Source of the DNA: a virus
Taxonomy: Duplodnaviria > Heunggongvirae > Uroviricota > Caudoviricetes
Reading direction: 5' to 3' (one strand)
DNA: 23,505 nt
IMG/VR virus record: IMGVR_UViG_2925939204_000004
Location: 1-23,505 of that record
Shown: positions 1 to 17,749 of the stretch, piece by piece
Numbering within the stretch: position 1 is the first letter of the stretch
Layout: every line of letters starts with the position of its first letter
Notes under the pieces: model-generated
What the model saw: only the letters and a program-made list of their open reading frames with translations
What the model was told of the DNA's origin: nothing
Database searches by the model: none
Program-made: the position numbers and the translations under genes

Positions 1-141
1 TTACTGCTTACACTGTAAGAACGCCGCAAACTCCGCTCCCCAGAAGCTCATCCGTATTTCACACAGCGAACCGTGCAACATCCAGATGATGAGGATTGCC
101 GTCACGCAGAACGTGATGGCCGTAAGCGATTTTTGCGACAT
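1..141 (-). CDS. Hok/Gef-family type I toxin (46 aa)
   Basis: Minus-strand ORF, ATG at 139-141, TAA at 1-3. Translation MSQKSLTAITFCVTAILIIWMLHGSLCEIRMSFWGAEFAAFLQCKQ has one hydrophobic helix and the Hok-family C-V-T...S-L-C-E-I-R signature. AAGGAG lies 9 nt upstream. Gene ends at the window edge. Confidence 0.65.
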   Translation of the reverse strand: MSQKSLTAITFCVTAILIIWMLHGSLCEIRMSFWGAEFAAFLQCKQ

Positions 142-271
142 AGCACTTGCTCCTTTTCCGGAGAGGCGCTAACCTTTCACTTGTCAAGGTAATGCGGTTA
201 GGGCCTCGGTTAAACAGAGATGTTTTCCGGGGCCTTTCCACATCTGGCCTTCGGGTATTCCCTCCGACCAT
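59..271 (-). CDS. mok-like overlapping frame (70 codons) covering the hok start
   Basis: A 70-codon ORF with ATG at 269-271 overlaps the hok gene in another frame, as mok does in hok/sok loci. No clear SD and no similarity argument, so this rests on the overlap geometry alone. Confidence 0.3.
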   Translation of the reverse strand: MVGGNTRRPDVERPRKTSLFNRGPNRITLTSERLAPLRKRSKCYVAKIAYGHHVLRDGNPHHLDVARFAV

Positions 272-331
272 CAGCCGAAAGGCACCCGCGCGTAATCTAT
301 CGCTTTTTTGTTACTCCGGCAATTCTGCCTG

Positions 332-592
332 TTAATTCTGAGGTAAAGGCAAGCTCATCTGATTGTTTCCCCTGTGTGAAGCTGGCAGCTCATGCCACGG
401 GATACCTTCTGAAGAGTGGATGCCGGAGGCGTGTTTCGATGTGAATTTATGGAAAGCTTCCAGTGTTGAGAAGCATACGCCGCATTCCAGGTTGTTACAC
501 TGGTAATACTTTTGCCGCACGGTGTTTGAATCATTTTCCGGACGACTGGTGCGGATACGGGCAGATGCGCCACAAAGCGGACAACGGAACAT
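332..592 (-). CDS. ogr: Ogr/Delta-family zinc-finger late transcription activator
   Basis: Translation starts MFRCPLCGASARIRTSR...YYQCNNLECGVCFS, matching the CxxC...CxxC Ogr signature of P2. The ORF is 86 aa against about 72 for P2 Ogr, so the C-terminal end is uncertain. Confidence 0.8.
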   Translation of the reverse strand: MFRCPLCGASARIRTSRPENDSNTVRQKYYQCNNLECGVCFSTLEAFHKFTSKHASGIHSSEGIPWHELPASHRGNNQMSLPLPQN

Positions 593-703
593 AGCGACCT
601 CCCTTAACGTAGTGCTGTCGCTAGTTTAGGCTGAACTTGCTCAGACTCCAACTGATAGTTCGTTTTGTTTACTGATGCCGTAGAAAGGTCTCTTAGCAAG
701 AAT

Positions 704-726
704 AACCCCAGTTTAACACTGGGGTT
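704..726 (-). terminator. Hairpin (8-bp stem AACCCCAG / CTGGGGTT, 7-nt loop) downstream of the 742-1407 gene
   Basis: Perfect inverted repeat 18 nt after the stop of the minus-strand cargo gene, followed on the minus strand by a moderately U-rich stretch (AUUCUU). Confidence 0.4.
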
Positions 727-741
727 GCTTGCAACAGAGCG

Positions 742-1407
742 TCAATTTTTAAGAGCACTGATACAGAAAAATTGCATGACATTTTTCTTTATTGATTTAA
801 ATAAGCTAAACATTGTGACAGGTTCAAAGCTAGTTAACTCGATGAATTCCTCTCTCATTTGAGAAAGTAACAGCTGACGTACTGATTCAATTTCTGCTGT
901 TTGTTTTCTCAAATATCTTGAGAAAACAAGTAGTTCATCAGCTGTTTTGTTTTGGCCATTTATAAACGTAACAGGTTGCCCTGGCTTAGATATGAGAAAA
1001 AATTGGTTAATTTTATCAAGTAATGGTGGAATTATTTTTTTCCATTCAGCCCATTCTTTTTCACGATGAAACTCCAGACTGTGCTGACATGTTCTTAGTT
1101 GCTGTATATCAATCGCCCAGACCTCACTCTCATCGAGGCAATCTTTCCATTTGCTAATTACATTAATGTCAAATTTTTTGTTCGGTAGATAATTATCTTT
1201 GGCGTGCGCTTCCAGTATAGAGGCAAGAGTACCTGTATATTGCATCAAATTGGTAGATGCTCGGTTTACTAGCTCTGATATTCGATCTAGTTGAGTTGTT
1301 CTAATCTCAAGTGCTTTCTTTTTACGTTCATTTCGTAAAGCAAAATATGCAGCAAGGCAGACTGCAGCAACTGTGGCTGCTGGTGCGATAAAAATTTGCA
1401 TATTCAT
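742..1407 (-). CDS. AT-rich hypothetical membrane-anchored protein (cargo between D and ogr)
   Basis: ORF with AAGGA SD 8 nt before ATG at 1405-1407 (the internal Met of the tracked ORF). N-terminal hydrophobic helix MNMQIFIAPAATVAAVCLAAYFAL, then about 200 hydrophilic residues. GC content is visibly lower than in the flanking D and ogr genes. No family recognised. Confidence 0.5.
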   Translation of the reverse strand: MNMQIFIAPAATVAAVCLAAYFALRNERKKKALEIRTTQLDRISELVNRASTNLMQYTGTLASILEAHAKDNYLPNKKFDINVISKWKDCLDESEVWAIDIQQLRTCQHSLEFHREKEWAEWKKIIPPLLDKINQFFLISKPGQPVTFINGQNKTADELLVFSRYLRKQTAEIESVRQLLLSQMREEFIELTSFEPVTMFSLFKSIKKNVMQFFCISALKN

Positions 1408-1601
1408 AACATGGATCCTTTGACATGGCATTTATGGGGGCTATTTCAGCAGTAATCATTTGTGTGTAAATTTGTTTGCTACAAATTAACATATTCTAAT
1501 GTAAGGCTCTTCTGATTTTGACACCGGGTAGGCTGTCAGATTGGTTATGATTCTTGCTGTAAGCGCGTTAGCAAATGTCAGGGCTAATGCATCTAAGTTG
1601 T

Positions 1602-2711
1602 TTACTCTGTTTCTGCTATCCATTCCGGGATTTTGGCTTCAAGCTCAAGCTGCGTGGTAAAGCCACTGTTATCAATGGTGTGCTCGGCTTTTGCAATGAT
1701 CCAGTCCTGATTATCAATCTCGCTTTTAAATCCTGTTACCGTGCCATGCATTTCGGGGTAGAGCTCTGCTCGTCCACGTGCCAGCGTGATGGAAAATGAT
1801 GCGGCTCCGCGTTGTAGCTGCTGCCACTTTGCCGCCGCTGCGCGTCTTGCTGCCTGCTCGTTCTGATAAGTTTTGCGTAACACAAACACATTGCCTTCCG
1901 CGCCTTCCATATAATCACCTTCACGGCTGCTGCTTTTCTCCTTTTTGGGTTTTGGCGGTTTGCGGCGTTTCACGCTGACTTTTTTCTTTTTCCCGTAATT
2001 AAGATCAAGCCAGTAAGCGCGTACCCCCGTATACGCTTCGCGGTCAGCAATGCGGAACTGATGGCGATCGCCACTGCTGCGCGTGATGGCGAACGAGGGC
2101 AACGGCTGGCCCTGCGCGTTCACGCCACCGCCTGGCATGATGAATAACAGATTACCGCTTTTTACCGTGGTGATTGCGCCCAGCATTTCCGCCATGCGCG
2201 TAAGGAAGGACATGTCGCTTTCTTCGGTCTGGTCGGCGTGGTCGATTTCGATATCCATCAGCATTTCGCTGATTTGCGGTTTCAGACCATACCGATGAGC
2301 GATGGCGGATACCACACGCTCAACGGTCACATCATGCCAGGACACCTCACGTTTAACGTTAAATTCATCCCGAAAATCTGCGCTTCTGGCTGAAACAGTC
2401 AGCCTGTCCGGCGGTCCTTCGTGAGCGATTTCATCAACAATGTAAGTGCCTTTTTCTGTCAGCGGTTCTCCTTTCCAGCCAATGAGAACCGTCAGGCGCG
2501 CGCCCCGTGGCGGTAGCTGCAACTGACCATCCGCATCATCCAGCGTGATGGTGAGCTGGTCCGCCTCAAATCCCCGGTTGTCGGTCAGTGACAGGCTCAT
2601 CAGGCGCTCTGCCACGCCTGACAGCGTTTTACCCTCCGCGAGAATATCAAAATCCGGCATTTTCACGGGGTCTGTGCCCTGACTGAGCAATTGCATGGTG
2701 GTGTCGGTCAT
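1602..2711 (-). CDS. D: P2 gpD-family tail protein (late control gene D)
   Basis: Translation contains SLSLTDNRGFEADQLTITLDDADG, SWHD and a basic KKKKVSVKRRKPPKPKKEK linker, as in gpD. Start placed at the internal ATG (2709-2711) preceded by GGGAGGGAG rather than at the upstream extension. Confidence 0.85.
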   Translation of the reverse strand: MTDTTMQLLSQGTDPVKMPDFDILAEGKTLSGVAERLMSLSLTDNRGFEADQLTITLDDADGQLQLPPRGARLTVLIGWKGEPLTEKGTYIVDEIAHEGPPDRLTVSARSADFRDEFNVKREVSWHDVTVERVVSAIAHRYGLKPQISEMLMDIEIDHADQTEESDMSFLTRMAEMLGAITTVKSGNLLFIMPGGGVNAQGQPLPSFAITRSSGDRHQFRIADREAYTGVRAYWLDLNYGKKKKVSVKRRKPPKPKKEKSSSREGDYMEGAEGNVFVLRKTYQNEQAARRAAAAKWQQLQRGAASFSITLARGRAELYPEMHGTVTGFKSEIDNQDWIIAKAEHTIDNSGFTTQLELEAKIPEWIAETE

Positions 2712-2868
2712 CTGCTCCCTCCCTGTGTGGCATGGTCGCATGTGCGTGCGGAGGGGGTTACTGCTTTTTGTTGTCGCCGTGGCGGGAGAATGGCGCAGGG
2801 GTGAGATTACGCGCGTGGTGGGTGATGATTGTTGCCGAATCATTTAACGGATACAAGGGGCTGAAGCT

Positions 2869-4053
2869 ATGAGTGAAACTCGTTTTCATGGTGCCCGTGT
2901 TACGGAAAATACCGACCTGGTAACAGCGATTAACGATGTTGATTCCAGCGTTATCGGTATCGTGGCAACGGCGGATGATGCGGACGCGAAGCTGTTCCCG
3001 CTGAACAAGCCCACACTGCTGACCCGCGTCAATGACGTGCTGGGAAAATGCGGAACAACGGGGACGCTTTATCGTGCGCTTAAGGCCATCGCAGACCAGG
3101 TGAGCACAAAGGTGATCGTCGTTCGCGTGGCTGAACACAAAGAAGAAGACGAAAAGACGCAGGATCAACTGGTTATCGGTGGTTCTGAGGATGACGGCAG
3201 CTATACGGGGATGTATGCGCTGCTTGTTGCAGAGCAGGATGAAAGCATCGGATACCGTCCGCGTATTCTGGCCGCGCCGGAGCTGGACACGGAGGCGGTG
3301 ACAAAATCCCTGTGCGTGATTGCGGGTAAACTGCGCGCATTTGTGTATGCCTCATGTCACGGCTGTAACACGATGGCTGAAGCGATTACCTACCGCCAGA
3401 AATTCAACGAACGTGAAGTGATGCTCTTATGGCCGGACTTCATCGCCTACAACCCGAAAAGTGGCGAAAACGAAACGTTCCCCGCGCCTGCTTATGCGTG
3501 CGGCCTTCGTGCGTACATTGACCATGAGCAGGGCTGGCACAAATCGCTGTCCAACGTTCCGGTTAAAAATGTGCTGGGGATGTCGAGGCATGTGTTCTGG
3601 TCGTTGCAGGCCGAAGACAGCGATGCCAACAGCCTCAACAACAAAGAAATCACGACCATTATTCGTCGCAACGGGTTCCGCTTCTGGGGCAACCGCACAC
3701 CGGAAACGAACGCCTACATTTTTGAGGTGTACACCCGAACCGCACAGGTGCTGGCTGATTCAATTGCGGAAGCGCAGTTTGAAACCATCGACAGTCCACT
3801 GACGCCTGCGAACGTGAAGGATGTTATCAGTGCCATCAGGGCAAAACTGGATTCACTGGTGACTGCCGGGAAACTGATTGGCGCGGAGTGCTGGTATGAC
3901 GTGGTGGATAACAGCACCACGGATTTACGTCAGGGGCGTGTGCGTATTCGCTACAAATATACGCCCGTTCCGCCACTGGAAGACATGGAGCTTTACCAGA
4001 CGTTTACTGATGAATACTTTGAACCCGCATTTGCGGTGCTGGGAGGTGCCTGA
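2869..4053 (+). CDS. FI: Contractile tail sheath protein (P2 gpFI family)
   Basis: 394-aa ORF with a FPLNKP motif near the N-terminus and sheath-like length. Its stop overlaps the FII start (TGATG). Confidence 0.9.
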   Translation: MSETRFHGARVTENTDLVTAINDVDSSVIGIVATADDADAKLFPLNKPTLLTRVNDVLGKCGTTGTLYRALKAIADQVSTKVIVVRVAEHKEEDEKTQDQLVIGGSEDDGSYTGMYALLVAEQDESIGYRPRILAAPELDTEAVTKSLCVIAGKLRAFVYASCHGCNTMAEAITYRQKFNEREVMLLWPDFIAYNPKSGENETFPAPAYACGLRAYIDHEQGWHKSLSNVPVKNVLGMSRHVFWSLQAEDSDANSLNNKEITTIIRRNGFRFWGNRTPETNAYIFEVYTRTAQVLADSIAEAQFETIDSPLTPANVKDVISAIRAKLDSLVTAGKLIGAECWYDVVDNSTTDLRQGRVRIRYKYTPVPPLEDMELYQTFTDEYFEPAFAVLGGA

Positions 4054-7943: not shown

Positions 7944-7955
7944 GGAGTCATGGCC

Positions 7956-8444
7956 ATGATGATGATCTACGGCATGTTTGTTTTTGAGCTGCGCACATTG
8001 CCGCATCAGCAGTTACAGCAAAACAAAAGCTGGCGGCATGTGAAAAATGAACGCGTTAACCGTTCAGCAAGCTGGCAGTATATCGGCGCAGGTGATGATC
8101 GCATCGTGCTTTCCGGCGTGCTTTATCCTGAAATTACAGGTGGCGAAGTGTCGCTTTCGTTGCTGACCACACAGGCATATACAGGACGCCCCTGGCCTCT
8201 GATTGATGGTGTCGGGCAGATTTACGGCATGTATGTACTGACTGAAACGAATACGACCCGTTCCGAGTTTGATCGCTACGGTAAGGCGAAAAAGATAGAA
8301 TTTTCACTGACCCTTGAACGCTGTGATGAGGATTTGCGGGAGCGTCTGCAATCCTCATCGTTCAGTGATATGCTGTCCGGCTTCAAAGATAAGGTCACAT
8401 CATCCCTTAACAGCGCGGCCAGTTCAGTTAAAGGACTGTTCTGA
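7956..8444 (+). CDS. U: Tail protein gpU
   Basis: Translation MMMIYGMFVFELRTLPHQQLQQNKSWRH...VLSGVLYPEITGG resembles P2 gpU. GGAG sits 8 nt before ATG 7956. Confidence 0.85.
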   Translation: MMMIYGMFVFELRTLPHQQLQQNKSWRHVKNERVNRSASWQYIGAGDDRIVLSGVLYPEITGGEVSLSLLTTQAYTGRPWPLIDGVGQIYGMYVLTETNTTRSEFDRYGKAKKIEFSLTLERCDEDLRERLQSSSFSDMLSGFKDKVTSSLNSAASSVKGLF

Positions 8445-8453
8445 TTTTACATT

Positions 8454-8496
8454 GCCGCTAATACCCTCATATTGGGTAATGGGCGGCTTGTTGTTA
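8454..8496 (+). terminator. Candidate intrinsic terminator after U
   Basis: Imperfect hairpin (GCCGCTAATACCC ... GGGTAATGGGCGGC) followed by CTTGTTGTTATATA, 10 nt after the U stop. Confidence 0.35.
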
Positions 8497-8540: not shown

Positions 8541-9719
8541 TTATAAAGAATTGCTACTTTCTAATTCTGGGTTTCTGGATCTATTTTTACAACCTAAATC
8601 CGAGTGGTAATTCGGTATATCGTTTGTCAAATCTTGTTTGATAGCATTAATTAAGATCATTATGTCGAATTTATGCATATCGTCGCCCCCTTCAGACCTT
8701 AGATGTTCGGATGTGGTGAGTTGAGTCGCTAATTTGCTGTTTGGCCCCCACACAATATTATTTTCGAATTTTCCTTCATGCATTCTGTTATTATATATAC
8801 AGTATTGTCTAATGTTTAATGCACTGGCTAAATGTACAATGGCAGTATCTACAGTTATAACAAAATCAGCATGGCGAACCAATGCAAATGAACATCCGGC
8901 ATCAGAAAATGGAGATAGAGACACATTATCCAATCCATTGTGATTAATCTGTTTTCCCATATTAAAAACTATTGTGTGATATCCCTTAAGGTTATTAAGG
9001 TAAGCTAGTACTTTGTTTATCTGTTCATCAGATAAGGTTCTGCTATTCTGAGAGCCATAAGGGTTAAATATAACTAATTTTTTGTTTTTCTTCCTGAATT
9101 CATTTGCAACAATATTTGCTGGTTCATATATTTTGTTGTCAAAATTAAGCGCTGCAGCATAATTATTATTTTTTATCTTTAGTAAAGATAAAACTTTTTT
9201 CATTCTTTCAGATGTGTGAATGGAACGATTATCGATTATATTTGTATCAAAAATAGTTACGGCAGGATGATTAAAACAGATAGAGTGTTTAGGTCTAAGT
9301 AAATGTAGTGTTTGCAATCTGGTTATCGCTGTGTTATCAAAATTTGAGAAGTCAACAACAAGATCTACATTCAGTTTTTTTATCTTTGCTTTTAGTTCGT
9401 TAAATTTATTTTTCTCGTAAGATATAAAGGCATCCACGCCAACAATATCAGTAAAGAGGAATGATACTCTTGAAGGTGCTATCACATATACCACCATACC
9501 GGATTTTTGAAGTTGTTTAATAAACCCTGAGGTAACGATGCCGTCACCAATGGCTTGCATGTGCATGAAAATGCACACTGTTTTATAACTATCCGGCTGT
9601 AATGATGTTTTCCTTCTGTATCGCATTTTTAGAAATGCCAGTCTGGCCTTCGTCTTTATCTTTTTTGTTTTAATATTTCGCTGTCTGTTAAGCTGTTTTA
9701 ATGATGAAATAACATTCAT
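8541..9719 (-). CDS. GT9-like (heptosyltransferase-fold) glycosyltransferase, AT-rich cargo
   Basis: Very AT-rich ORF. N-terminal VCIFMHMQAIGDGIV...VYVIAPS and C-terminal KKLVIFNPYGSQNSRTLSDEQ and ADFVITVDTAIVHLASALNI resemble GT9 motifs. Start uncertain: the tracked ORF begins at TTG 9779 and the ATG at 9719 has only a weak SD. Confidence 0.5.
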   Translation of the reverse strand: MNVISSLKQLNRQRNIKTKKIKTKARLAFLKMRYRRKTSLQPDSYKTVCIFMHMQAIGDGIVTSGFIKQLQKSGMVVYVIAPSRVSFLFTDIVGVDAFISYEKNKFNELKAKIKKLNVDLVVDFSNFDNTAITRLQTLHLLRPKHSICFNHPAVTIFDTNIIDNRSIHTSERMKKVLSLLKIKNNNYAAALNFDNKIYEPANIVANEFRKKNKKLVIFNPYGSQNSRTLSDEQINKVLAYLNNLKGYHTIVFNMGKQINHNGLDNVSLSPFSDAGCSFALVRHADFVITVDTAIVHLASALNIRQYCIYNNRMHEGKFENNIVWGPNSKLATQLTTSEHLRSEGGDDMHKFDIMILINAIKQDLTNDIPNYHSDLGCKNRSRNPELESSNSL

Positions 9720-9813
9720 AATGGTACCCTGAAATTCCAAATCACACATGTCATCCGAAATGAGCAGGGTACTATACAAAAAACTGGACTACAATGGTTT
9801 GAAATGAAAGCCT

Positions 9814-10413
9814 TTATGCTTGTTTACTCCTTGATTCCACTGGGGAAGCTGGCCACTCAATATCCGGTGCTCTTGATGTATCAACACGGTTCAGCAGCAC
9901 TCGATACTTCTTCCAGGCTTCCAGCAACGAGATTTCTTCCTCCGTTGCGATTTCCAGATCTACAGCATCCTGAAGTGGCGCAATATGCTCACTGGCTACC
10001 TGCATCAGGCTGTTTTTTGTTTCTTCTGCCTCCCGGATCCGGAACAGTTTTTCTGCTTCCGTATCCTTCACCCAGGCTGTGCCGTTCCACTTCTGATATT
10101 CCCCTTCCGGCGACGACCAGGTAACATTTTCCGGTAACGGACCGAGTTCAGAAATAAATAACGCGTCGCCGGAAGCCACGTCATAAACCGTTTTACCACG
10201 ATGATCTTCAACGAGATGCCAAGACGCCCCATCACTGTTGAAAACAGCCACGAAGCCAGCTGGAATATCTGGCGGAGCAATATCAGTACTATTTGCAGGC
10301 AGACCTGTATGAGGTGGAATGTATGCATCACCTTCACCAATAAATTCATTGGTTCCGACCAGCAGATTATAAATTTTTATGGTTCGTGGTTGTTCACTCA
10401 TTCTGAATGCCAT
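9814..10413 (-). CDS. Tail fibre assembly protein (Tfa, P2 gpG-like)
   Basis: 199 aa with conserved C-terminal [26 protein letters not shown]. Its ATG overlaps the stop of the upstream tail fibre ORF (TAATG). Confidence 0.85.
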
Positions 10414-11480
10414 TATGCAAGCCTCACAATATAGTTAAATGCGATGTTTTTTACGGTGTTTTCCGCGTTGCCATAAGCGGCAATGGTAATGGTGTGTGTG
10501 TGCGAACCAATAGCGAGCGTATGTGTATGCGCACCTATTGCTACTGTGTGAGTATGAGCTCCTGCGCTTAATACGCGATTACTTGCTGTCTTGCTTGTGT
10601 TAGTTGCATGCATTCCACCACCGGTACCGGGAGTTTCTGCGTATGCTGAAGTATTGTTGTAAGCAAAGTTGTGTGTATGTGCTCCGGTGTTATTTGTGGA
10701 TTTAGTTCCGTAATCAAACGACGATGTGGTTTTCGTCCCCAAATCCGTACTGGATGCGCTGGCGCTGTGGGTGTGCGATTTAATGCCGTCCTGTTCCTGA
10801 GACAATACGGCCCGACCACTGGCAGGTTTGCCCTTAATCGTCCAGCCACGCATATCAGGGATCACGCCTGACGGATAAGCGACTGCAAGTTTCGGGTAGG
10901 CAGATTTGTCAAAAGTCTGCCCCTGCATCAGGGCATAACCAGACGGAACGGTATCCGATGGCCACGGGATTGGTGCGCCAGGCGGATAAAACTGCTCTGA
11001 TGGCGTATAGAGTGAATAAACTGTACCGTCCGTTAACCCTTCCGGCTTATTAGCAGAATATGCTGGTGACGGATGAATCGTTACGCTGGCATTACTGGTA
11101 TAATCCCATTGAATATTTACACCAGTCGCATAATTTCCGATTGCAACGTAAATATCGTAAGTATCACCAGATGTATTGACCCAGGCAAAATTTGTAAACC
11201 CTGCCGATGTGCGCTGCCATAAAGCACCAGTAATCCCCTTCGGATTACCATTACCTGCACGCAAAACAATTTCAGATATACCTGCCTGTTGAGGTGAACC
11301 GACGTTATATCCAGCGCCACCAATCAACGTAATTGAAACAACAGAACTCGCCTGTGGCATGGTTACCGTTGCTAATTTGAACCAACCAGCACCACCTCTG
11401 AATGACATTGTTGTTGAGTTAAGCGTACCAATATCTTTCGGTGTCAGTGTTATATCCGCTGAAAGCGCCTTACCATTCAC
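10413..11480 (-). CDS. Tail fibre protein, C-terminal receptor-binding region; N-terminally truncated relative to P2 gpH
   Basis: C-terminus carries [24 protein letters not shown] fibre repeats. The ORF opens only with GTG 21 nt after an in-frame stop. An ATG-AGT (Met-Ser) start sits right after the I stop but hits a stop after 6 codons. Confidence 0.55.
10470..10565 (-). repeat. Tandem degenerate coding repeats (about 24 bp, HTHT-x-AIG units) inside the tail fibre gene
   Basis: Three consecutive units visible in both the DNA and the translation. Confidence 0.4.
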
Positions 11481-11504: not shown

Positions 11505-12467
11505 TTAATCGTCCGGATAAATGGTAATGACTTCACCGTCGTAAGTTGCTGCCGCCGCGAAAATATCCCCCGGAATTTCCTGAATGATATTCAGCCCTGT
11601 CATGTGGCGGCTGACCGGGCGGGCATCAGCAATCAACCGCTCCATTTCCAGATACATTTCCTCCGTCACGCCACTGTCCAGCGTGCCGACTTCAACGGTA
11701 AATGTTCCCGGTTCTCCGCCGAACTCCCACCACTCAGACACGCGAATGAGGTATCCCAGCGGCTCAATGGCCCGGCGCAGTGCGCTGATGGTTCCTTTGT
11801 GTCGGTGTATCAGCCATGCATCACGAATCACCTGTCGCTTTGTCTCTTCCGGCCAGTTGCGATCCCAGCGGTCAACGGAAAACGCCCAGGCGAGATAAGG
11901 CAGCAGATGCACCGGGCAGGTGTCCGGCGACCACAGCGTGTTGAGGTCTACCGGAATGTCTGTAACGTCCTGAAGCAGCTTGTTGGTGCTGAAGTTGGAC
12001 TCATCTGCGTGAGACGTGCCGTTGAAACCGATCATGATGCGGTCAAGCGCCACCTGCCGGGCAATCTGTGTGCTGACGCGTGACTGAAAATCAGGGTGTG
12101 CCGCCCAGGCATCAAGCTGCGGATACGAAATAAACGTGTCGTAGTTCACCTGTTCGCACTGATATTTACGGTTTTTCAGATCAACCACGTTATTCGGGTT
12201 ACGGCGTTTTGTGCCGTCATAACTGGTATTCGTGCGCGCAATCGGCCCGGTGGTGTCCAGGAGGATTTTTTCGCCTTTCTGGTCGGTCACACCGAACACG
12301 TTAATTTTTTTTGTAAATTCAGTGCTCTCCTTTACTGCGTTTTCAAAACGCTGCTGCACCGAGGGTTCCACGGTAAATCGCGATACCAGTGCAGATACCG
12401 GGATGTTGTTAAGCGACGCCTGCTGCGCCATATAGCAACCCAGCTTGTTGCGGGTAATATCTGACAT
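11505..12467 (-). CDS. Chimeric ORF: N-terminal half of major capsid protein gpN fused in frame to tail protein gpI (deletion remnant)
   Basis: Residues 1 to about 172 resemble gpN (FTVEPSV, RKYQCEQVNYDTFISYPQLDAWA, IMIGFNGT). From about 11965 downstream the protein resembles gpI (LWSPDTCPVHLLPYLAWAFSVDRWDRNWPEE, LGYLIRVSEWWE, MERLIADARPVSRH). Confidence 0.7.
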   Translation of the reverse strand: MSDITRNKLGCYMAQQASLNNIPVSALVSRFTVEPSVQQRFENAVKESTEFTKKINVFGVTDQKGEKILLDTTGPIARTNTSYDGTKRRNPNNVVDLKNRKYQCEQVNYDTFISYPQLDAWAAHPDFQSRVSTQIARQVALDRIMIGFNGTSHADESNFSTNKLLQDVTDIPVDLNTLWSPDTCPVHLLPYLAWAFSVDRWDRNWPEETKRQVIRDAWLIHRHKGTISALRRAIEPLGYLIRVSEWWEFGGEPGTFTVEVGTLDSGVTEEMYLEMERLIADARPVSRHMTGLNIIQEIPGDIFAAAATYDGEVITIYPDD

Positions 12468-12502
12468 CACCAGATTCATAAAAAATTTGCTCCTTTGTCT
12501 TA

Positions 12503-13339: not shown

Positions 13340-13499
13340 AGTTTTTGCCCCTCTGACTGGTTCTTCAGTCATGATGGCAAAGCGTAACAGGCTGATACAA
13401 AGGGCTTTTGTTGTAAGAAAACGGCCAGAACAGGGGGTTAAGGAGAACGGTTTCGCGCGCGGGTAATCTTCCTGTAGCGATCTTGAATCATGGTGGTAT

Positions 13500-14105
13500 G
13501 TGCAGGATGGCAAGGATGCGTTCCAGTTTCGCCCTGGCAAAGTGTGCCACCTGATGAATCCTGACATTAACCAGGAAATCTACGGCATGCCGGAATATCT
13601 CGGCGCATTACTCTCGGCCAGCCTGTCTCATTCGGCGGACATGTTCAGAAAACTGTATTACGACAACGGATCCCACGCCGGGTGCATCATCTACATCGGT
13701 GCAGCGCAGGTAAACCGCGAAAGCATGGACTCCCTGAAAGAAACGCTACAGGGTGCACGTGGTGGCGGTGCGTTTAAAAACGTGCTCATTCATGCGCCCA
13801 ACGGGGGCAAAGAGGGGGTGCAAATTTTGCCGTTCCAGCAGATCACCGCAAAGGATGAGTTCATGAATGTTAAGGCGGCATCCCGTGATGATGTGCTGGC
13901 TGCGCACCGCGTTCCGCCGCAACTGATGGGGGCGATGCCGGGTGAAAAAAGTGCGTTTGGTGATGTGGAGAAGGCCGCGCGGGTTTACGCAATTAACGAG
14001 CTGATGCCCGTCATGGAGGCCATGAAGCACATCAATGACTGGCTTGGCGAAGAGGTGATCCGCTTTAACCCTTACGCACTGTTAGATACCCAGCCCACAT
14101 CCTGA
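13500..14105 (+). pseudogene. Portal protein (P2 gpQ family), C-terminal fragment of about 200 aa
   Basis: Contains PDINQEIYGMPEYL and RDDVLAAHRVPPQLMG portal motifs but begins with GTG only 160 bp from the divergent O start. There is no room for the N-terminal portal half or for the terminase gene P. Confidence 0.65.
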
Positions 14106-14638: not shown

Positions 14639-15157
14639 TCATTCGAAACTGGCAAGAATCTGTTCTCGAACAGAAGATTTCATCGTTAACCCACGATCTA
14701 GGAAAAATTGGAAATGCATTAAGGCTTGTTGTTTGTGTATAAGTCTCCTGCGCACAGCCTCTTGAAGTAGCCCTCCGTGGCGGGCGGCTTTTACACCGCG
14801 TTCCGCACACGTTTTATAAACCGCATTATCCGCCGAAAGACATGTTGCATCATGTATTCTCGCGTTAACAACGCAGCTTATGTCCGCATACTTCAATGCT
14901 CTCCTGCGATTTTTTATCTCAGCCATTTCAATAAAATGTTCAGGTTCGTAATCATTGGTGAAATTGTATGGAAGTTGCAGGCGTGTAAGCTGTTCCTGAA
15001 CATCAAGATTGTATTTAGCTTTTAGTTCCTCGCAGACATAGGGGTCAATCCACACACCACCCGGGTAAATTTGCCAGATAATATCTAAGCATTTACCTTC
15101 GTAAAAATCAGACAGTACATTCGTATCGATAACACATCTGGGGCATTCAAACGGCAT
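14639..15157 (-). CDS. PIN-like (VapC/DUF4411-like) putative nuclease; toxin or effector candidate
   Basis: Starts at ATG 15155-15157, overlapping the upstream gene's stop by 11 nt. N-terminus CVIDTNVLSDF with downstream acidic residues (CEELK, IHDATCLSADN) spaced as in PIN folds. AT-rich. Confidence 0.6.
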   Translation of the reverse strand: MPFECPRCVIDTNVLSDFYEGKCLDIIWQIYPGGVWIDPYVCEELKAKYNLDVQEQLTRLQLPYNFTNDYEPEHFIEMAEIKNRRRALKYADISCVVNARIHDATCLSADNAVYKTCAERGVKAARHGGLLQEAVRRRLIHKQQALMHFQFFLDRGLTMKSSVREQILASFE

Positions 15158-16292
15158 CCTCTCCGGCCTCCTGTTCGTCGTACCATTCATCCAGAAGATT
15201 GCTGAGAGCTTTTCTGTCTAATTCTAAAAGTTCAGATATGAAGGTTTCCGACGCGGAACCGGCTTCCCATGCTTTACGCGATAAGACGGTTAGGCGACCT
15301 TTATAATTTAGTGCTTCCCTAATGGGATTTGGCTCGTGTCTCTTCCAACCTTTACGATTGGCGGTTGCCCATAGGTATCTAGTGTTTTGTTGATTAATTA
15401 AATTACATTTACTAAGACGATCGATGATGCAAGTGGCTGATACTCTGAAAATGCTTTTTAGTCTAAGGACGGTTTCCTCATACGCCCATCCACCACCTTG
15501 CATGACGAATTGTTTTCGCAATGCGCTTTCTGGTACCAAAAAACAAGCAGCAAAGTGATTAGCAACTTTTTCTTCCGGTGAAATTGCTTTGCCATTAGTT
15601 TTATAGCTTTTAGCAGGGCCATGATACTCATCACGGTGGAAGATAAGATGAGCATATTCATGGCAAATACTGAAGATTTGACGTTCTATTGAAATGCTGT
15701 CGTGAACATTTACATAAATCGCGGTACCGTATTTGTTCGAAAACGCAGAAAATCCGAATACCATCCCTTTATCGGTTTCTTCGCGATTGAACGGGATTAC
15801 TCGAATATCCGATGCTTCCAAAATGGCTACAATGTCACCAACGCAAGTAGCGTTTCCTATACCAAGACGGAAACGTTCTTCCATAGCCTTATCTTCGACT
15901 CTTCGCAAATCTTCTGCTTTGGCGGTAAAAATAGGCATTGAGTTAGGAAGATCTTCTGGCAAATTAGCATCAGCAGCTTCCTCAATTGCATTGATATTTT
16001 TTAACTTTTCAATCAACTCATTGCGAAGTTTGGCATCCAACAAATCCGGACTATCTGCTCGCATTGCAAAACGAAACTCGCCATCATCTTGCTCATAAAA
16101 ATACCCGATAGGCTTATCGAAAATCTTGCAGAGCATGATGAGTTGGGTAACGCTTGGGACGCCTAACGCCTGCTCAAACTTACTGTAGGTTTGACGAACA
16201 ACACCGATCGCATCTGCGACGGCGCTTGCACTCATTCCCGCGTCGTTTCTGGCCTGAACCAAGCGTTCTGCTATACGCTGTTGAATGTTCAT
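15147..16292 (-). CDS. XRE-family HTH fused to an ImmA/IrrE-type (COG2856/M78) zinc metallopeptidase
   Basis: N-terminal HTH (QRIAERLVQARNDAGMSASAVADAIGVVRQTYSKFE) and an intact HEXXH motif in SICHEYAHLIFH. AGGTGA SD precedes the start. AT-rich. Confidence 0.7.
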   Translation of the reverse strand: MNIQQRIAERLVQARNDAGMSASAVADAIGVVRQTYSKFEQALGVPSVTQLIMLCKIFDKPIGYFYEQDDGEFRFAMRADSPDLLDAKLRNELIEKLKNINAIEEAADANLPEDLPNSMPIFTAKAEDLRRVEDKAMEERFRLGIGNATCVGDIVAILEASDIRVIPFNREETDKGMVFGFSAFSNKYGTAIYVNVHDSISIERQIFSICHEYAHLIFHRDEYHGPAKSYKTNGKAISPEEKVANHFAACFLVPESALRKQFVMQGGGWAYEETVLRLKSIFRVSATCIIDRLSKCNLINQQNTRYLWATANRKGWKRHEPNPIREALNYKGRLTVLSRKAWEAGSASETFISELLELDRKALSNLLDEWYDEQEAGEDAV

Positions 16293-16789: not shown

Positions 16790-17749
16790 TTACTCCTTGT
16801 CCATTGCGTACAGCCCATTAACCAGAGCAAACTGTGGCACCCCGTCCGCGATGAAAGTCGCATTAACTCCGCAGGCTTCGCGGATAGCGGGTGCCACAAT
16901 CTCCGCCCCGCCACCGACAACCATCACCCGCCCGTAACCCGAAAAATCCGCCAGCGCGCGGATCACGCGTTGTTTCAGTGTTTCTTCCTTTTCACGAATA
17001 ACCGCCATCAGGCTGGCGTAATGCGCGTCATTGTGGATGTGCTGGCGCAGCCAGGCTTCATCATGGCGATGTTCGATAATGGTATTGGCGATGTGGTGAC
17101 TGGTGCGCATACCGTTAGTGGCCATCACCGACAGTACGGCATCGGCCATCAGAGAAACGCCTACGTGTGGATCGCAAAACACCTGGCTGATACCTGCCAG
17201 TTGCCCCTGAACCTTTGCCACATCCAGCGTGGTTCCGCCCAAATCCACAATCAGCAGGGATTCAAACGGACTCATGTCAGCCAGTGCCTTAAAGCCAGCC
17301 GGAATGGATTCAGGCATAACCCGCACGTTACGGATAGTGAATGCCTCACCGTTCTGGTACTCCACCGGGCGCATGACGTTCGCTTTTTTGCGGTTGATGT
17401 TGGCCATGTCCGGCTGTGCGTTTGTGTCGAAATATTCGCTCAGTGGCAGGGTGACAACCACATCCACCTCCTGTGGCGTGATGCCTGATTTGACCAGCGC
17501 GTGATGAATGGCAATGACATTCACATCGCTGTACTGGTATTGCGTGTCGGTCGTCTGGACAAAGCGATCGCTGACCGGATCAAAACCATAGCGCACGCCA
17601 TCAAGCATGTAGTTCGCGGGCTGCGTGCCACCGAACGGCGCAGACCATTCCGACTTGAAGCTGTTCGGGCTGATGGCGTTGCGGCGTTCGCCGTTCTCAG
17701 TCCATGCCAGCTTGATGTTGGTGGAGCCGTCATCGATACAAATTTTCAT
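16790..17749 (-). CDS. parM: ParM/StbA actin-like partition ATPase
   Basis: MKICIDDGSTNIKLAW...ISPNSFK...YQYSDVNVIAIHHAL...VMPESIPAG...LIVDLGGTTLD...VVGGGAE aligns along its length with plasmid R1 ParM from memory. Confidence 0.85.
   Translation of the reverse strand: MKICIDDGSTNIKLAWTENGERRNAISPNSFKSEWSAPFGGTQPANYMLDGVRYGFDPVSDRFVQTTDTQYQYSDVNVIAIHHALVKSGITPQEVDVVVTLPLSEYFDTNAQPDMANINRKKANVMRPVEYQNGEAFTIRNVRVMPESIPAGFKALADMSPFESLLIVDLGGTTLDVAKVQGQLAGISQVFCDPHVGVSLMADAVLSVMATNGMRTSHHIANTIIEHRHDEAWLRQHIHNDAHYASLMAVIREKEETLKQRVIRALADFSGYGRVMVVGGGAEIVAPAIREACGVNATFIADGVPQFALVNGLYAMDKE

What the first reader, a model, noticed from the sequence alone, without database searches (positions are those of the whole stretch)
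8541..9779. AT-rich GT9-like glycosyltransferase immediately after the tail fibre genes
Seen in sequence: a strongly AT-rich gene follows the tail fibre assembly gene on the same strand after a 34-bp gap. The protein has GT9-like N- and C-terminal motifs, with DTAIVH in place of the usual DSGxMH. Established knowledge: GT9 enzymes are LPS heptosyltransferases; P2-like phages adsorb to the LPS core; the slot between G and FI holds Z/fun in P2 and is a cargo hotspot. Inference: a lysogenic-conversion enzyme that alters LPS and so excludes superinfecting phages.
Basis: partly seen in the sequence, partly recalled or inferred. Interest (0 to 1): 0.65.

Follow-up and report, generated by a model that had tools for sequence, protein, structure and literature searches.

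The report
Prophage-borne WaaU-like LPS core glycosyltransferase
A defective P88-like (P2-family) prophage of E. coli carries, right after its tail-fibre genes, an intact AT-rich gene for a family-9 glycosyltransferase most like the outer-core heptosyltransferase WaaU, so it probably remodels the host's LPS core; this is a plausible but untested lysogenic-conversion gene.

Summary
An intact 392-aa ORF (8541-9719, minus strand; ATG start rather than the TTG at 9779) with 33% GC sits in a ~51% GC prophage, 94 bp downstream of the tail-fibre assembly gene.

It is a GT9 enzyme. It passes the Pfam PF01075 threshold. The AlphaFold model (pLDDT 89.7) matches GT9 structures 3TOV, WaaC and WaaF best. 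The catalytic Asp (D59) and the DTAIVH donor motif are invariant in the family.

Its closest E. coli paralogue is WaaU, the HepIV transferase. Chromosomal homologues sit inside waa core clusters of Serratia, Gilliamella, Brenneria and Vibrio.

Close homologues in Providencia lie right after tail-fibre genes in two other myovirus types. The gene is therefore a recurrent phage moron.

The prophage is a Xuanwuvirus (P88-like). Its FI-U block is natively inverted, so the cargo slot is the G|U junction, not G|FI.

All seven carrier genomes checked have the R3 core type, against a 25% background.

The gene stays intact under purifying selection in decaying prophages. LPS modification and phage exclusion are inferred, not shown. 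PGAP already names the protein a GT9.

The parts
8541..9719 (-). WaaU-like GT9 glycosyltransferase CDS (392 aa, ATG start; the ORF could extend to a TTG at 9779). An N-terminal basic helix (aa 3-33) precedes two Rossmann-like domains. The C-terminal tail (aa 369-392) is disordered in the model.
9720..9813 (-). 94-bp G-GT intergenic region. No consensus sigma-70 promoter and no terminator are predicted. A weak hairpin overlaps the putative ribosome-binding site.
9814..10413 (-). Tail-fibre assembly protein (gpG/Tfa type), immediately upstream and on the same strand.
10413..11480 (-). C-terminal 355 aa of tail fibre gpH (Stf-type tip with a collar domain and His-rich repeats). It is N-terminally truncated compared with the 703-aa H of strain 165.
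7950..8444 (+). gpU tail protein, the last gene of the FI-FII-E-T-U block. It converges on the GT gene and marks the other edge of the cargo slot.
8454..8487 (.). GC-rich hairpin in the 96-bp U|GT convergent spacer. It is followed by a T-rich run on the plus strand and is probably the terminator of the FI-U operon. Homology to P88-like phages ends at about 8451.

Best explanation
The gene encodes an active inverting GT-B glycosyltransferase of family GT9, in the WaaU-like subfamily. It is carried as dispensable cargo (a moron) in the slot after the tail-fibre assembly gene of a P88-like (Xuanwuvirus, Peduoviridae) temperate phage.

Inferred mechanism:
1. The protein sits at the inner face of the cytoplasmic membrane, held by its basic N-terminal helix.
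2. It uses D59 as catalytic base and the DTAIVH motif to hold a nucleotide sugar, most likely ADP-L-glycero-D-manno-heptose, which every E. coli makes.
3. It adds a side-branch sugar to the outer core of lipid A-core before export. In these hosts that core is the R3 type, which has no WaaU of its own.
4. The altered core would change what core-binding phages see, including phages of its own kind. It might also change the acceptor seen by the O-antigen ligase.

Shown: fold, conserved catalytic motifs, cargo status, homologues in waa clusters, purifying selection, and the R3 host association.

Inferred: donor, acceptor, expression in lysogens, and any exclusion phenotype.
For: Enzyme family:
- Pfam PF01075 scores 26.7 bits against a cut-off of 22.
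- The family profile hits PDB 3TOV over its full length, E 8e-12.
- The AF2 model has pLDDT 89.7 and pTM 0.86.
- Foldseek top hits are 3TOV, WaaC (6DFE, 2H1H) and WaaF (1PSW), E 1e-11 to 1e-13.
- G58, D59, D291 and H296 are invariant and align with WaaC D13, D261 and H266.

Subfamily:
- BLASTP to K-12 WaaU gives E 3e-17 over 334 aa and includes the N-terminal extension.
- hhalign gives 99.7% probability and E 4e-25 for WaaU, against 6e-11 for WaaQ and 7e-6 for WaaC.
- WaaU attaches HepIV to GlcIII of the K-12 core (PMC13293308).

Chromosomal homologues in LPS loci:
- The 54-55% identical homologues in Serratia sit in waaL-waaQ-G-P-B-O-J-[GT]-waaA-coaD.
- Copies in Gilliamella, Brenneria, Vibrio and Photobacterium also lie in waa clusters.
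- In Providencia rettgeri the prophage copy is paired with a GT2 gene, and one other metagenomic homologue (P0017) sits in an island next to a GT25 gene.

Recurrent phage cargo:
- The gene lies directly after the tail fibre or its assembly gene in an E217-like prophage and in a Mu-baseplate prophage of Providencia.
- It is absent from the sibling phages P88 and PhiR44_2, which share the same slot.
- It is present in an apparently complete prophage in strain 94-3024.

Retention:
- 49 of 5426 E. coli genomes carry it, at four or more integration sites.
- dN/dS is 0.1-0.3 among intact alleles.
- In strain L6-21 it is the only P2-like gene not flagged as a pseudogene or fragment in the remnant.

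Host link:
- 7 of 7 carriers checked have R3-type waa clusters.
- The R3 marker is in 1364 of 5426 genomes, 25%.
- The P88-like phage phiSM adsorbs to outer-core GlcIII (PMC6456863).
Against: - There is no biochemical or phenotypic data, and I found no paper on this protein.
- Identity to WaaU is only 23%, so donor and acceptor cannot be read from homology.
- No sigma-70 promoter is predicted upstream, and 33% GC DNA is a typical H-NS target. The gene may be silent in lysogens, or expressed only with the late H-G transcript.
- The fibre tip and Tfa next to it are a common E. coli type, at about 94% identity in 1293 genomes that mostly lack the GT. The GT is therefore not tied to a particular receptor-binding module.
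- The R3 association rests on seven genomes that are not phylogenetically independent.
Confidence: 0.6

Rival explanations
1. The enzyme is as described, but it serves the lytic cycle rather than the lysogen. It would be co-transcribed with H and G from the Ogr-dependent late promoter. It would mask the LPS receptor on the dying cell and its debris, so that released progeny are not wasted by re-adsorption.
For: The gene is on the same strand as H-G, only 94 bp downstream. No terminator or sigma-70 promoter is predicted between them. The same fibre-then-GT, same-strand order is seen in three phage lineages.
Against: Newly made core must be exported and must dilute the existing LPS, which is slow compared with a late-gene window. 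The gene is kept intact under purifying selection in remnants that can no longer make virions, for example L6-21 and this window with its N'-'I fusion. That pattern points to a benefit in the prophage state.
Confidence: 0.15
2. The enzyme modifies LPS, but the benefit selected for goes to the bacterium and is unrelated to phages. Examples are serum or antimicrobial-peptide resistance, gut colonisation, or altered O-antigen ligation on R3 cores. The gene would be a domesticated remnant.
For: The gene stays intact in heavily decayed prophages at several loci. dN/dS is 0.1-0.3. Lone chromosomal copies and waa-cluster copies exist in other genera. WaaU's HepIV is the O-antigen attachment site in K-12 (PMC13293308).
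Against: The strong, repeated association with tail-fibre genes in three phage types suggests selection at the level of the phage. Only about 1% of E. coli genomes carry it.
Confidence: 0.15
3. It is a protein heptosyltransferase of the TibC/Aah kind. It would glycosylate an autotransporter adhesin or the adjacent tail fibre rather than LPS.
For: TibC is a GT-B heptosyltransferase and appears among the fold matches (rank 36). A phage protein named Aah/TibC appears in the viral fold search (rank 17). The gene sits next to the tail fibre.
Against: TibC matches far worse (TM 0.47) than WaaC, WaaF and 3TOV. There is no sequence hit to TibC. The five cysteines are scattered, with no CxxC-type pair that could form TibC's iron-binding site (knowledge of the TibC iron site is mine). 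Homologues sit in waa clusters, not next to autotransporters.
Confidence: 0.05
4. It is an inactive relic or a silent passenger with no current function.
For: The prophage in the window is defective. No promoter is predicted. One carrier has an IS insertion in the gene and one has a frameshift.
Against: Of 49 copies, 48 are annotated without a pseudogene flag; one is IS-disrupted, and one of the 48 (ECZP248) is called short because of a frameshift, so about 47 are intact. The catalytic residues are invariant. dN/dS is well below 1.
Confidence: 0.05

Closest known systems
E. coli K-12 WaaU (RfaK), ADP-heptose:LPS heptosyltransferase IV, GT9
   Same: It is the best-matching characterised paralogue (hhalign 99.7%, E 4e-25; BLASTP E 3e-17 over 334 aa). 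Both share the N-terminal basic extension, the GD catalytic motif and a near-identical donor motif (DTALVH versus DTAIVH). Chromosomal homologues of the query occupy the equivalent place at the end of outer-core operons.
   Different: Identity is only 23%. The query is encoded on a prophage rather than in the waa operon. Its hosts have the R3 core, which lacks WaaU's K-12 acceptor context. It also has an extra 20-25 aa disordered C-terminal tail.
WaaC / WaaF / WaaQ inner-core heptosyltransferases (GT9; PDB 2H1H, 6DFE, 1PSW)
   Same: The GT-B fold and the catalytic Asp and D..H motifs are shared.
   Different: Sequence similarity is confined mostly to the C-terminal motif. NCBIfam equivalog scores are 21-23 bits against cut-offs of 185-467. 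These enzymes lack the N-terminal helix.
P2 fun(Z) and the post-G cargo slot of P2-like phages
   Same: Both are non-essential cargo immediately after the tail-fibre assembly gene G. P2's record describes fun(Z) as a lysogenic-conversion gene that blocks T5.
   Different: The proteins are unrelated. fun(Z) converges on G, whereas this gene is co-directional with G. In this lineage the slot is bounded by gpU, not gpFI.
Phage seroconversion genes (gtrABC of P22 and the Shigella Sf phages, oac of Sf6); from my own knowledge
   Same: These are temperate-phage genes near the tail-fibre or att end that alter LPS and thereby block adsorption of the same phage type.
   Different: They act on O-antigen, through periplasmic Und-P-glucose transfer or through acetylation. 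This gene would be a cytoplasmic nucleotide-sugar GT9 acting on the core.
PHROG 36326
   Same: It is essentially the same protein (E 7e-243 over aa 52-392).
   Different: The PHROG carries no functional annotation ('unknown function').

Membership tests
CAZy GT9 / Pfam PF01075 (Glyco_transf_9) | Sequence match to the family HMM above the curated threshold | tested here: met
   26.7 bits against a gathering score of 22, E 4e-6, covering aa 228-332 only. PGAP names it a GT9 family protein.
CAZy GT9 / Pfam PF01075 (Glyco_transf_9) | GT-B fold of two Rossmann-like domains, closest to solved GT9 structures | tested here: met
   The AF2 model has pLDDT 89.7. Foldseek ranks 3TOV, WaaC and WaaF at 1-10, except rank 7, a chloroplast NDH-PSI complex chain. 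The profile hit to 3TOV covers aa 44-350.
CAZy GT9 / Pfam PF01075 (Glyco_transf_9) | Catalytic Asp in the N-terminal G-D motif (WaaC D13) and the C-terminal D-x-x-x-x-H donor motif (WaaC D261/H266) | tested here: met
   G58, D59, D291 and H296 are invariant across 35 family members and across WaaU, WaaQ, WaaC and WaaF. The roles of the WaaC residues are from my knowledge of the WaaC literature.
CAZy GT9 / Pfam PF01075 (Glyco_transf_9) | Uses ADP-heptose as donor on an LPS acceptor | not testable with these tools
   Needs an enzyme assay or LPS mass spectrometry.
WaaU (HepIV transferase) orthologue | Closer to WaaU than to other GT9 paralogues, over the full length | tested here: met
   hhalign E is 4e-25 for WaaU, 6e-11 for WaaQ and 7e-6 for WaaC. 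The alignment includes the N-terminal extension.
WaaU (HepIV transferase) orthologue | Orthology-level identity and a place in the waa outer-core operon of a K-12-type core | tested here: not met
   Identity is 23%. The gene is in a prophage, and the hosts have R3 cores. It is best called WaaU-like, not WaaU.
WaaC / WaaQ equivalogs (NCBIfam TIGR02193, NF007742) | Score above the equivalog cut-off | tested here: not met
   22.7 bits against 185.3, and 21.2 bits against 467.
TibC/Aah protein heptosyltransferases | Fold and sequence closest to TibC, with a Cys-based iron site | tested here: not met
   TibC is rank 36 with TM 0.47. There is no sequence hit. The cysteines lie at positions 49, 148, 276, 307 and 377, with no CxxC-type pair.
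Phage lysogenic-conversion / superinfection-exclusion cargo | Dispensable gene in a variable slot of a temperate phage | tested here: met
   The slot is empty in PhiR44_2 and holds an invertase cassette in P88. The gene is present in the complete prophage of 94-3024. The GC content is foreign to the phage.
Phage lysogenic-conversion / superinfection-exclusion cargo | Expressed from the repressed prophage | tested here: inconclusive
   No consensus sigma-70 promoter is found in the 94-bp upstream gap. The scan is crude, and no transcript data are available.
Phage lysogenic-conversion / superinfection-exclusion cargo | Changes the receptor and blocks adsorption | not testable with these tools
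   Only indirect support exists: carriers are restricted to R3 hosts, and the P88-like phage phiSM uses the outer core as receptor.

The most novel reading that the evidence does not exclude
P88-like phages would carry a HepIV-type transferase that rewrites the R3 outer core. This would create an unrecognised 'R3 plus side-branch' core chemotype in about 1% of E. coli. The same WaaU-like cassette would shuttle between waa clusters and the tail-fibre-adjacent slots of at least three unrelated myovirus lineages in Enterobacterales. Phages would then be vectors of LPS core-type diversification, not only of O-antigen seroconversion.
Probability: 0.3. Interest if true: 0.65.

Novelty: new member of a known kind. 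Interest (0 to 1): 0.45.

Why it matters
Known phage seroconversion systems act on O-antigen. A phage-borne enzyme that edits the LPS core would widen that picture. It would also matter for core typing of E. coli, because R3 hosts carrying it might not display a plain R3 core. It would bear on the host range of core-binding therapeutic phages, and possibly on O-antigen ligation. Two observations make this directly testable with one cloning experiment in an R3 strain: the recurrent placement next to tail-fibre genes in three phage lineages, and the restriction of carriers to R3 hosts.

Tried and rejected
1. I first read the plus-strand FI-U block and PGAP's short gpD call as a degenerative inversion with a truncated D. 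This is rejected. P2 D residues 15-384 match 2657..1605. The same divergent D|FI and convergent U|G layout is native to the viable phages P88, PhiR44_2, 500465-2 and phiSM.

2. I tested whether the fibre tip, Tfa and GT arrived together as one low-GC module from Providencia. This is rejected. The H tip and G are a common E. coli Stf/Tfa type, about 94% identical in 1293 genomes. They are only 32% and 43% identical to the Providencia proteins.

3. I looked for a known defence system. The GT has no PADLOC hit.

4. I looked for a sequenced phage carrying the gene. There is none. The only hits are 23% identical genes in Campylobacter phages A11a and A18a. There is also no plasmid copy.

5. Promoter and terminator scans and RNA folds of both flanks gave nothing significant upstream. 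The downstream hairpin is probably gpU's terminator.

6. Six literature searches found no study of this protein.

7. The afdb50 fold library was unavailable.

8. The neighbour-joining tree of the family is star-like, with prophage and chromosomal copies interleaved. It has no bootstrap support, so I treat it as weak evidence only.

Full report
**What is there.** The window is an E. coli chromosomal segment. It is identical to several complete genomes, including AR_0119, AR_0118, AR_0128 and MS6193. It holds a defective P2-family prophage next to ihfA.
- On the minus strand an ORF runs 8541..9779.
- The TTG at 9779 is probably not the start. All 34 homologues align from the Met at 9719, and PGAP annotates that 392-aa product as WP_001100987.1, 'glycosyltransferase family 9 protein'.
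- The gene is 33.1% GC (GC3 29.5%), against 51.3% for the rest of the window.
- It lies 94 bp downstream of the tail-fibre assembly gene (9814-10413), on the same strand.

**What the protein is.**
- It passes Pfam's GT9 threshold: 26.7 bits against 22, although only aa 228-332 match.
- A profile of 35 family members hits the GT9 crystal structure 3TOV across aa 44-350 (E 8e-12), and hits WaaC and WaaF at the donor motif.
- An AlphaFold model built on that alignment is confident (pLDDT 89.7, pTM 0.86). Only the last 24 residues are disordered.
- Foldseek against the PDB ranks 3TOV, four WaaC entries and WaaF on top (E 1e-11 to 1e-13). TibC appears only at rank 36.
- G58-D59 and D291...H296 are invariant in the family. 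They align with WaaC G12-D13 and D261...H266, and with the corresponding residues of WaaF, WaaQ and WaaU.
- NCBIfam equivalogs for HepI and WaaQ are missed by an order of magnitude, so this is not a WaaC or WaaQ orthologue.
- Among K-12 GT9 enzymes the nearest is WaaU. BLASTP gives E 3e-17 over 334 aa. hhalign gives 99.7% and E 4e-25, against 6e-11 for WaaQ and 7e-6 for WaaC.
- The WaaU match includes a long basic N-terminal helix that WaaC, WaaF and WaaQ lack.
- WaaU adds HepIV to GlcIII of the K-12 outer core, which is the O-antigen attachment site (PMC13293308).

**Where relatives live.** The large protein search found only 35 relatives. The nearest outside E. coli are about 50-57% identical, and those that carry a source name are from Providencia. 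Their contexts fall into two groups.
- LPS loci:
  - A 55% identical homologue, and the Serratia marcescens copy, sit in waaL-waaQ-waaG-waaP-waaB-waaO-waaJ-[GT]-waaA-coaD.
  - Copies in Gilliamella, Brenneria, Vibrio and Photobacterium are also in waa clusters.
  - A metagenomic homologue (P0030) sits between asmA and an O-antigen cluster.
- Prophages:
  - In Providencia stuartii, P. alcalifaciens and Providencia sp. the gene directly follows the tail fibre, with or without an assembly gene, at the end of an E217-like myovirus prophage.
  - In P. rettgeri it follows the fibre and assembly genes of a prophage with a Mu-type baseplate, and is paired with a GT2 gene next to the integrase.
  - Other copies follow fibre or assembly-gene remnants, or sit in an integrase island next to a GT25 gene.
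- The same fibre-then-GT arrangement therefore recurs in three unrelated tail lineages. The family's chromosomal members are core-oligosaccharide genes.

**The phage and the slot.**
- Protein matches to P2 and DNA matches to phage records place the prophage in Xuanwuvirus (P88-like Peduoviridae).
- I first took the plus-strand FI-FII-E-T-U block and PGAP's 266-aa gpD call for an inversion with a truncation. In fact gpD is full length.
- The layout 'H G (minus), then FI..U on the plus strand converging on G, then D ogr (minus)' is native to the viable phages P88, PhiR44_2, 500465-2 and phiSM.
- The cargo slot is therefore the convergent G|U junction. It is empty in PhiR44_2, holds a DNA invertase with alternative fibre genes in P88, and holds the GT here.
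- It is positionally equivalent to P2's post-G slot that holds fun(Z). However, the gene is co-directional with G and unrelated to fun(Z).
- No record among 50,697 phage genomes and no plasmid carries the gene. PHROG 36326 is the same protein, labelled 'unknown function'.

**Distribution and selection in E. coli.**
- 49 of 5426 complete genomes carry the gene, always on the chromosome.
- The prophages sit at four or more integration sites: ihfA, yfhH/yfhL, flk, and tRNA-Leu/yecA.
- Strain 94-3024 has an apparently complete prophage. Most others are decayed.
- The window's copy has a capsid-N'/'tail-I fusion ORF (11505-12479), a truncated H, a partial portal gene and no large terminase gene.
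- Even so, 48 of 49 GT copies are annotated without a pseudogene flag; one is IS-disrupted, and one of the 48 (ECZP248) carries a frameshift and is called short, so about 47 are intact.
- In L6-21 the GT is the only P2-like gene of the remnant not flagged as a pseudogene or fragment.
- dN/dS among intact alleles is 0.1-0.3.

**A host association.**
- I located the waa cluster in seven carriers chosen from different sites and alleles: 94-3024, strain 165, L6-21, MB06101, NCTC11121, PapRG-04-4 and XJ34.
- All seven have the R3 gene set (waaQ-G-P-I-Y-J-D-L) and no waaU.
- The R3 marker waaD is in 1364 of 5426 genomes, or 25%.
- Seven of seven has a naive probability of about 6e-5. Counting only the four independent integration sites gives about 0.004. 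The genomes are not phylogenetically independent.
- Either these phages lysogenise only R3 strains, or the gene is useful only on an R3 core. Both readings tie it to the LPS core.
- A P88-like relative, phiSM, needs outer-core GlcIII for adsorption to K-12 (PMC6456863).

**Mechanism and limits.**
- The best reading is an active WaaU-like GT9 that adds a side-branch sugar, most likely heptose, to the outer core of the lysogen's LPS. This would change the surface seen by core-binding phages and possibly by the O-antigen ligase.
- Fold, motifs, cargo status, context, selection and host association are shown. Donor, acceptor, expression and phenotype are inferred.
- No sigma-70 promoter or terminator is predicted between G and the GT. 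Late co-transcription with H-G is therefore a live alternative.
- The adjacent fibre tip and Tfa are a common E. coli type found in 1293 genomes without the GT. The gene is not tied to one receptor-binding module.
- A TibC-like role in protein glycosylation is unlikely.

**Novelty.**
- The GT9 assignment is already in RefSeq annotation.
- The WaaU-like placement, the recurrent fibre-adjacent position in three phage types, the G|U slot, the retention in decaying prophages and the R3 restriction were not found in the papers searched.
- I rate it a new member of a known kind (phage-borne LPS-modifying conversion genes), of moderate interest.

Noticed in passing
window 11505-12479 (-), 10413-11480 (-), 13491-14081 (+): The prophage is defective. 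One ORF fuses the N-terminal half of the P2-type major capsid protein to the C-terminal part of tail protein I (Pfam Phage_cap_P2 plus Tail_P2_I), which implies loss of M, L, X, the lysis genes, R, S, V, W and J. The tail fibre H lacks its N-terminal half. The portal gene is partial and the large terminase gene is absent.
   Followed up: partly
window 14639-16292 (-): A gene pair sits in the portal-to-replication hotspot, where P2 keeps old and tin. One gene encodes an HTH plus M78/IrrE peptidase protein matching PADLOC RmrA models (E 3e-35). The other encodes a PIN-domain protein. This may be a toxin-antitoxin-type anti-phage system; from my own knowledge, RmrA is the antitoxin component of RosmerTA.
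   Followed up: partly
window 742-1431 (-): A second low-GC island (about 38% GC) between ogr and gpD holds a 229-aa ORF with no Pfam, PHROG or PADLOC match. The same slot holds other cargo in relatives: a ComF-family gene plus a hypothetical gene in STEC409, a 1023-nt ORF in 94-3024, and an IS3 element in strain 165.
   Followed up: partly
window 1602-2843 (-): PGAP calls gpD as an 801-nt 'VgrG/Pvc8 family' gene in all relatives. However, the ORF is 413 aa, and P2 gpD residues 15-384 align to 2657..1605, so D is probably full length and the annotated start is too far downstream.
   Followed up: yes
host chromosomes of carriers (L111, L113, L114, L115, L117, L118, L120): All seven GT-carrying E. 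coli genomes examined have the R3-type LPS core gene cluster, against a background of 25% in the collection.
   Followed up: partly
L101 6001-8118; L108 2383-4309: In a Providencia rettgeri prophage (L101) the GT9 homologue is followed by a convergent GT2 gene. In a metagenome-derived integrase island (L108) the homologue is followed by a GT25 gene. This hints at two-step glycan extension cassettes.
   Followed up: no
phage records MG065691.1 142249-143205 and MG065686.1 30918-31874: The large Campylobacter phages A11a and A18a encode a protein 23% identical to the GT over 80% of its length. These records are unannotated. They are the only hits among 50,697 phage genomes.
   Followed up: no
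window 1-141 (-) and 16790-17749 (-): A Hok/Gef toxin gene lies at the attR-side end of the prophage. ParM and a partition-protein gene lie inside it, so plasmid-like maintenance functions are present in a P2-family prophage.
   Followed up: no
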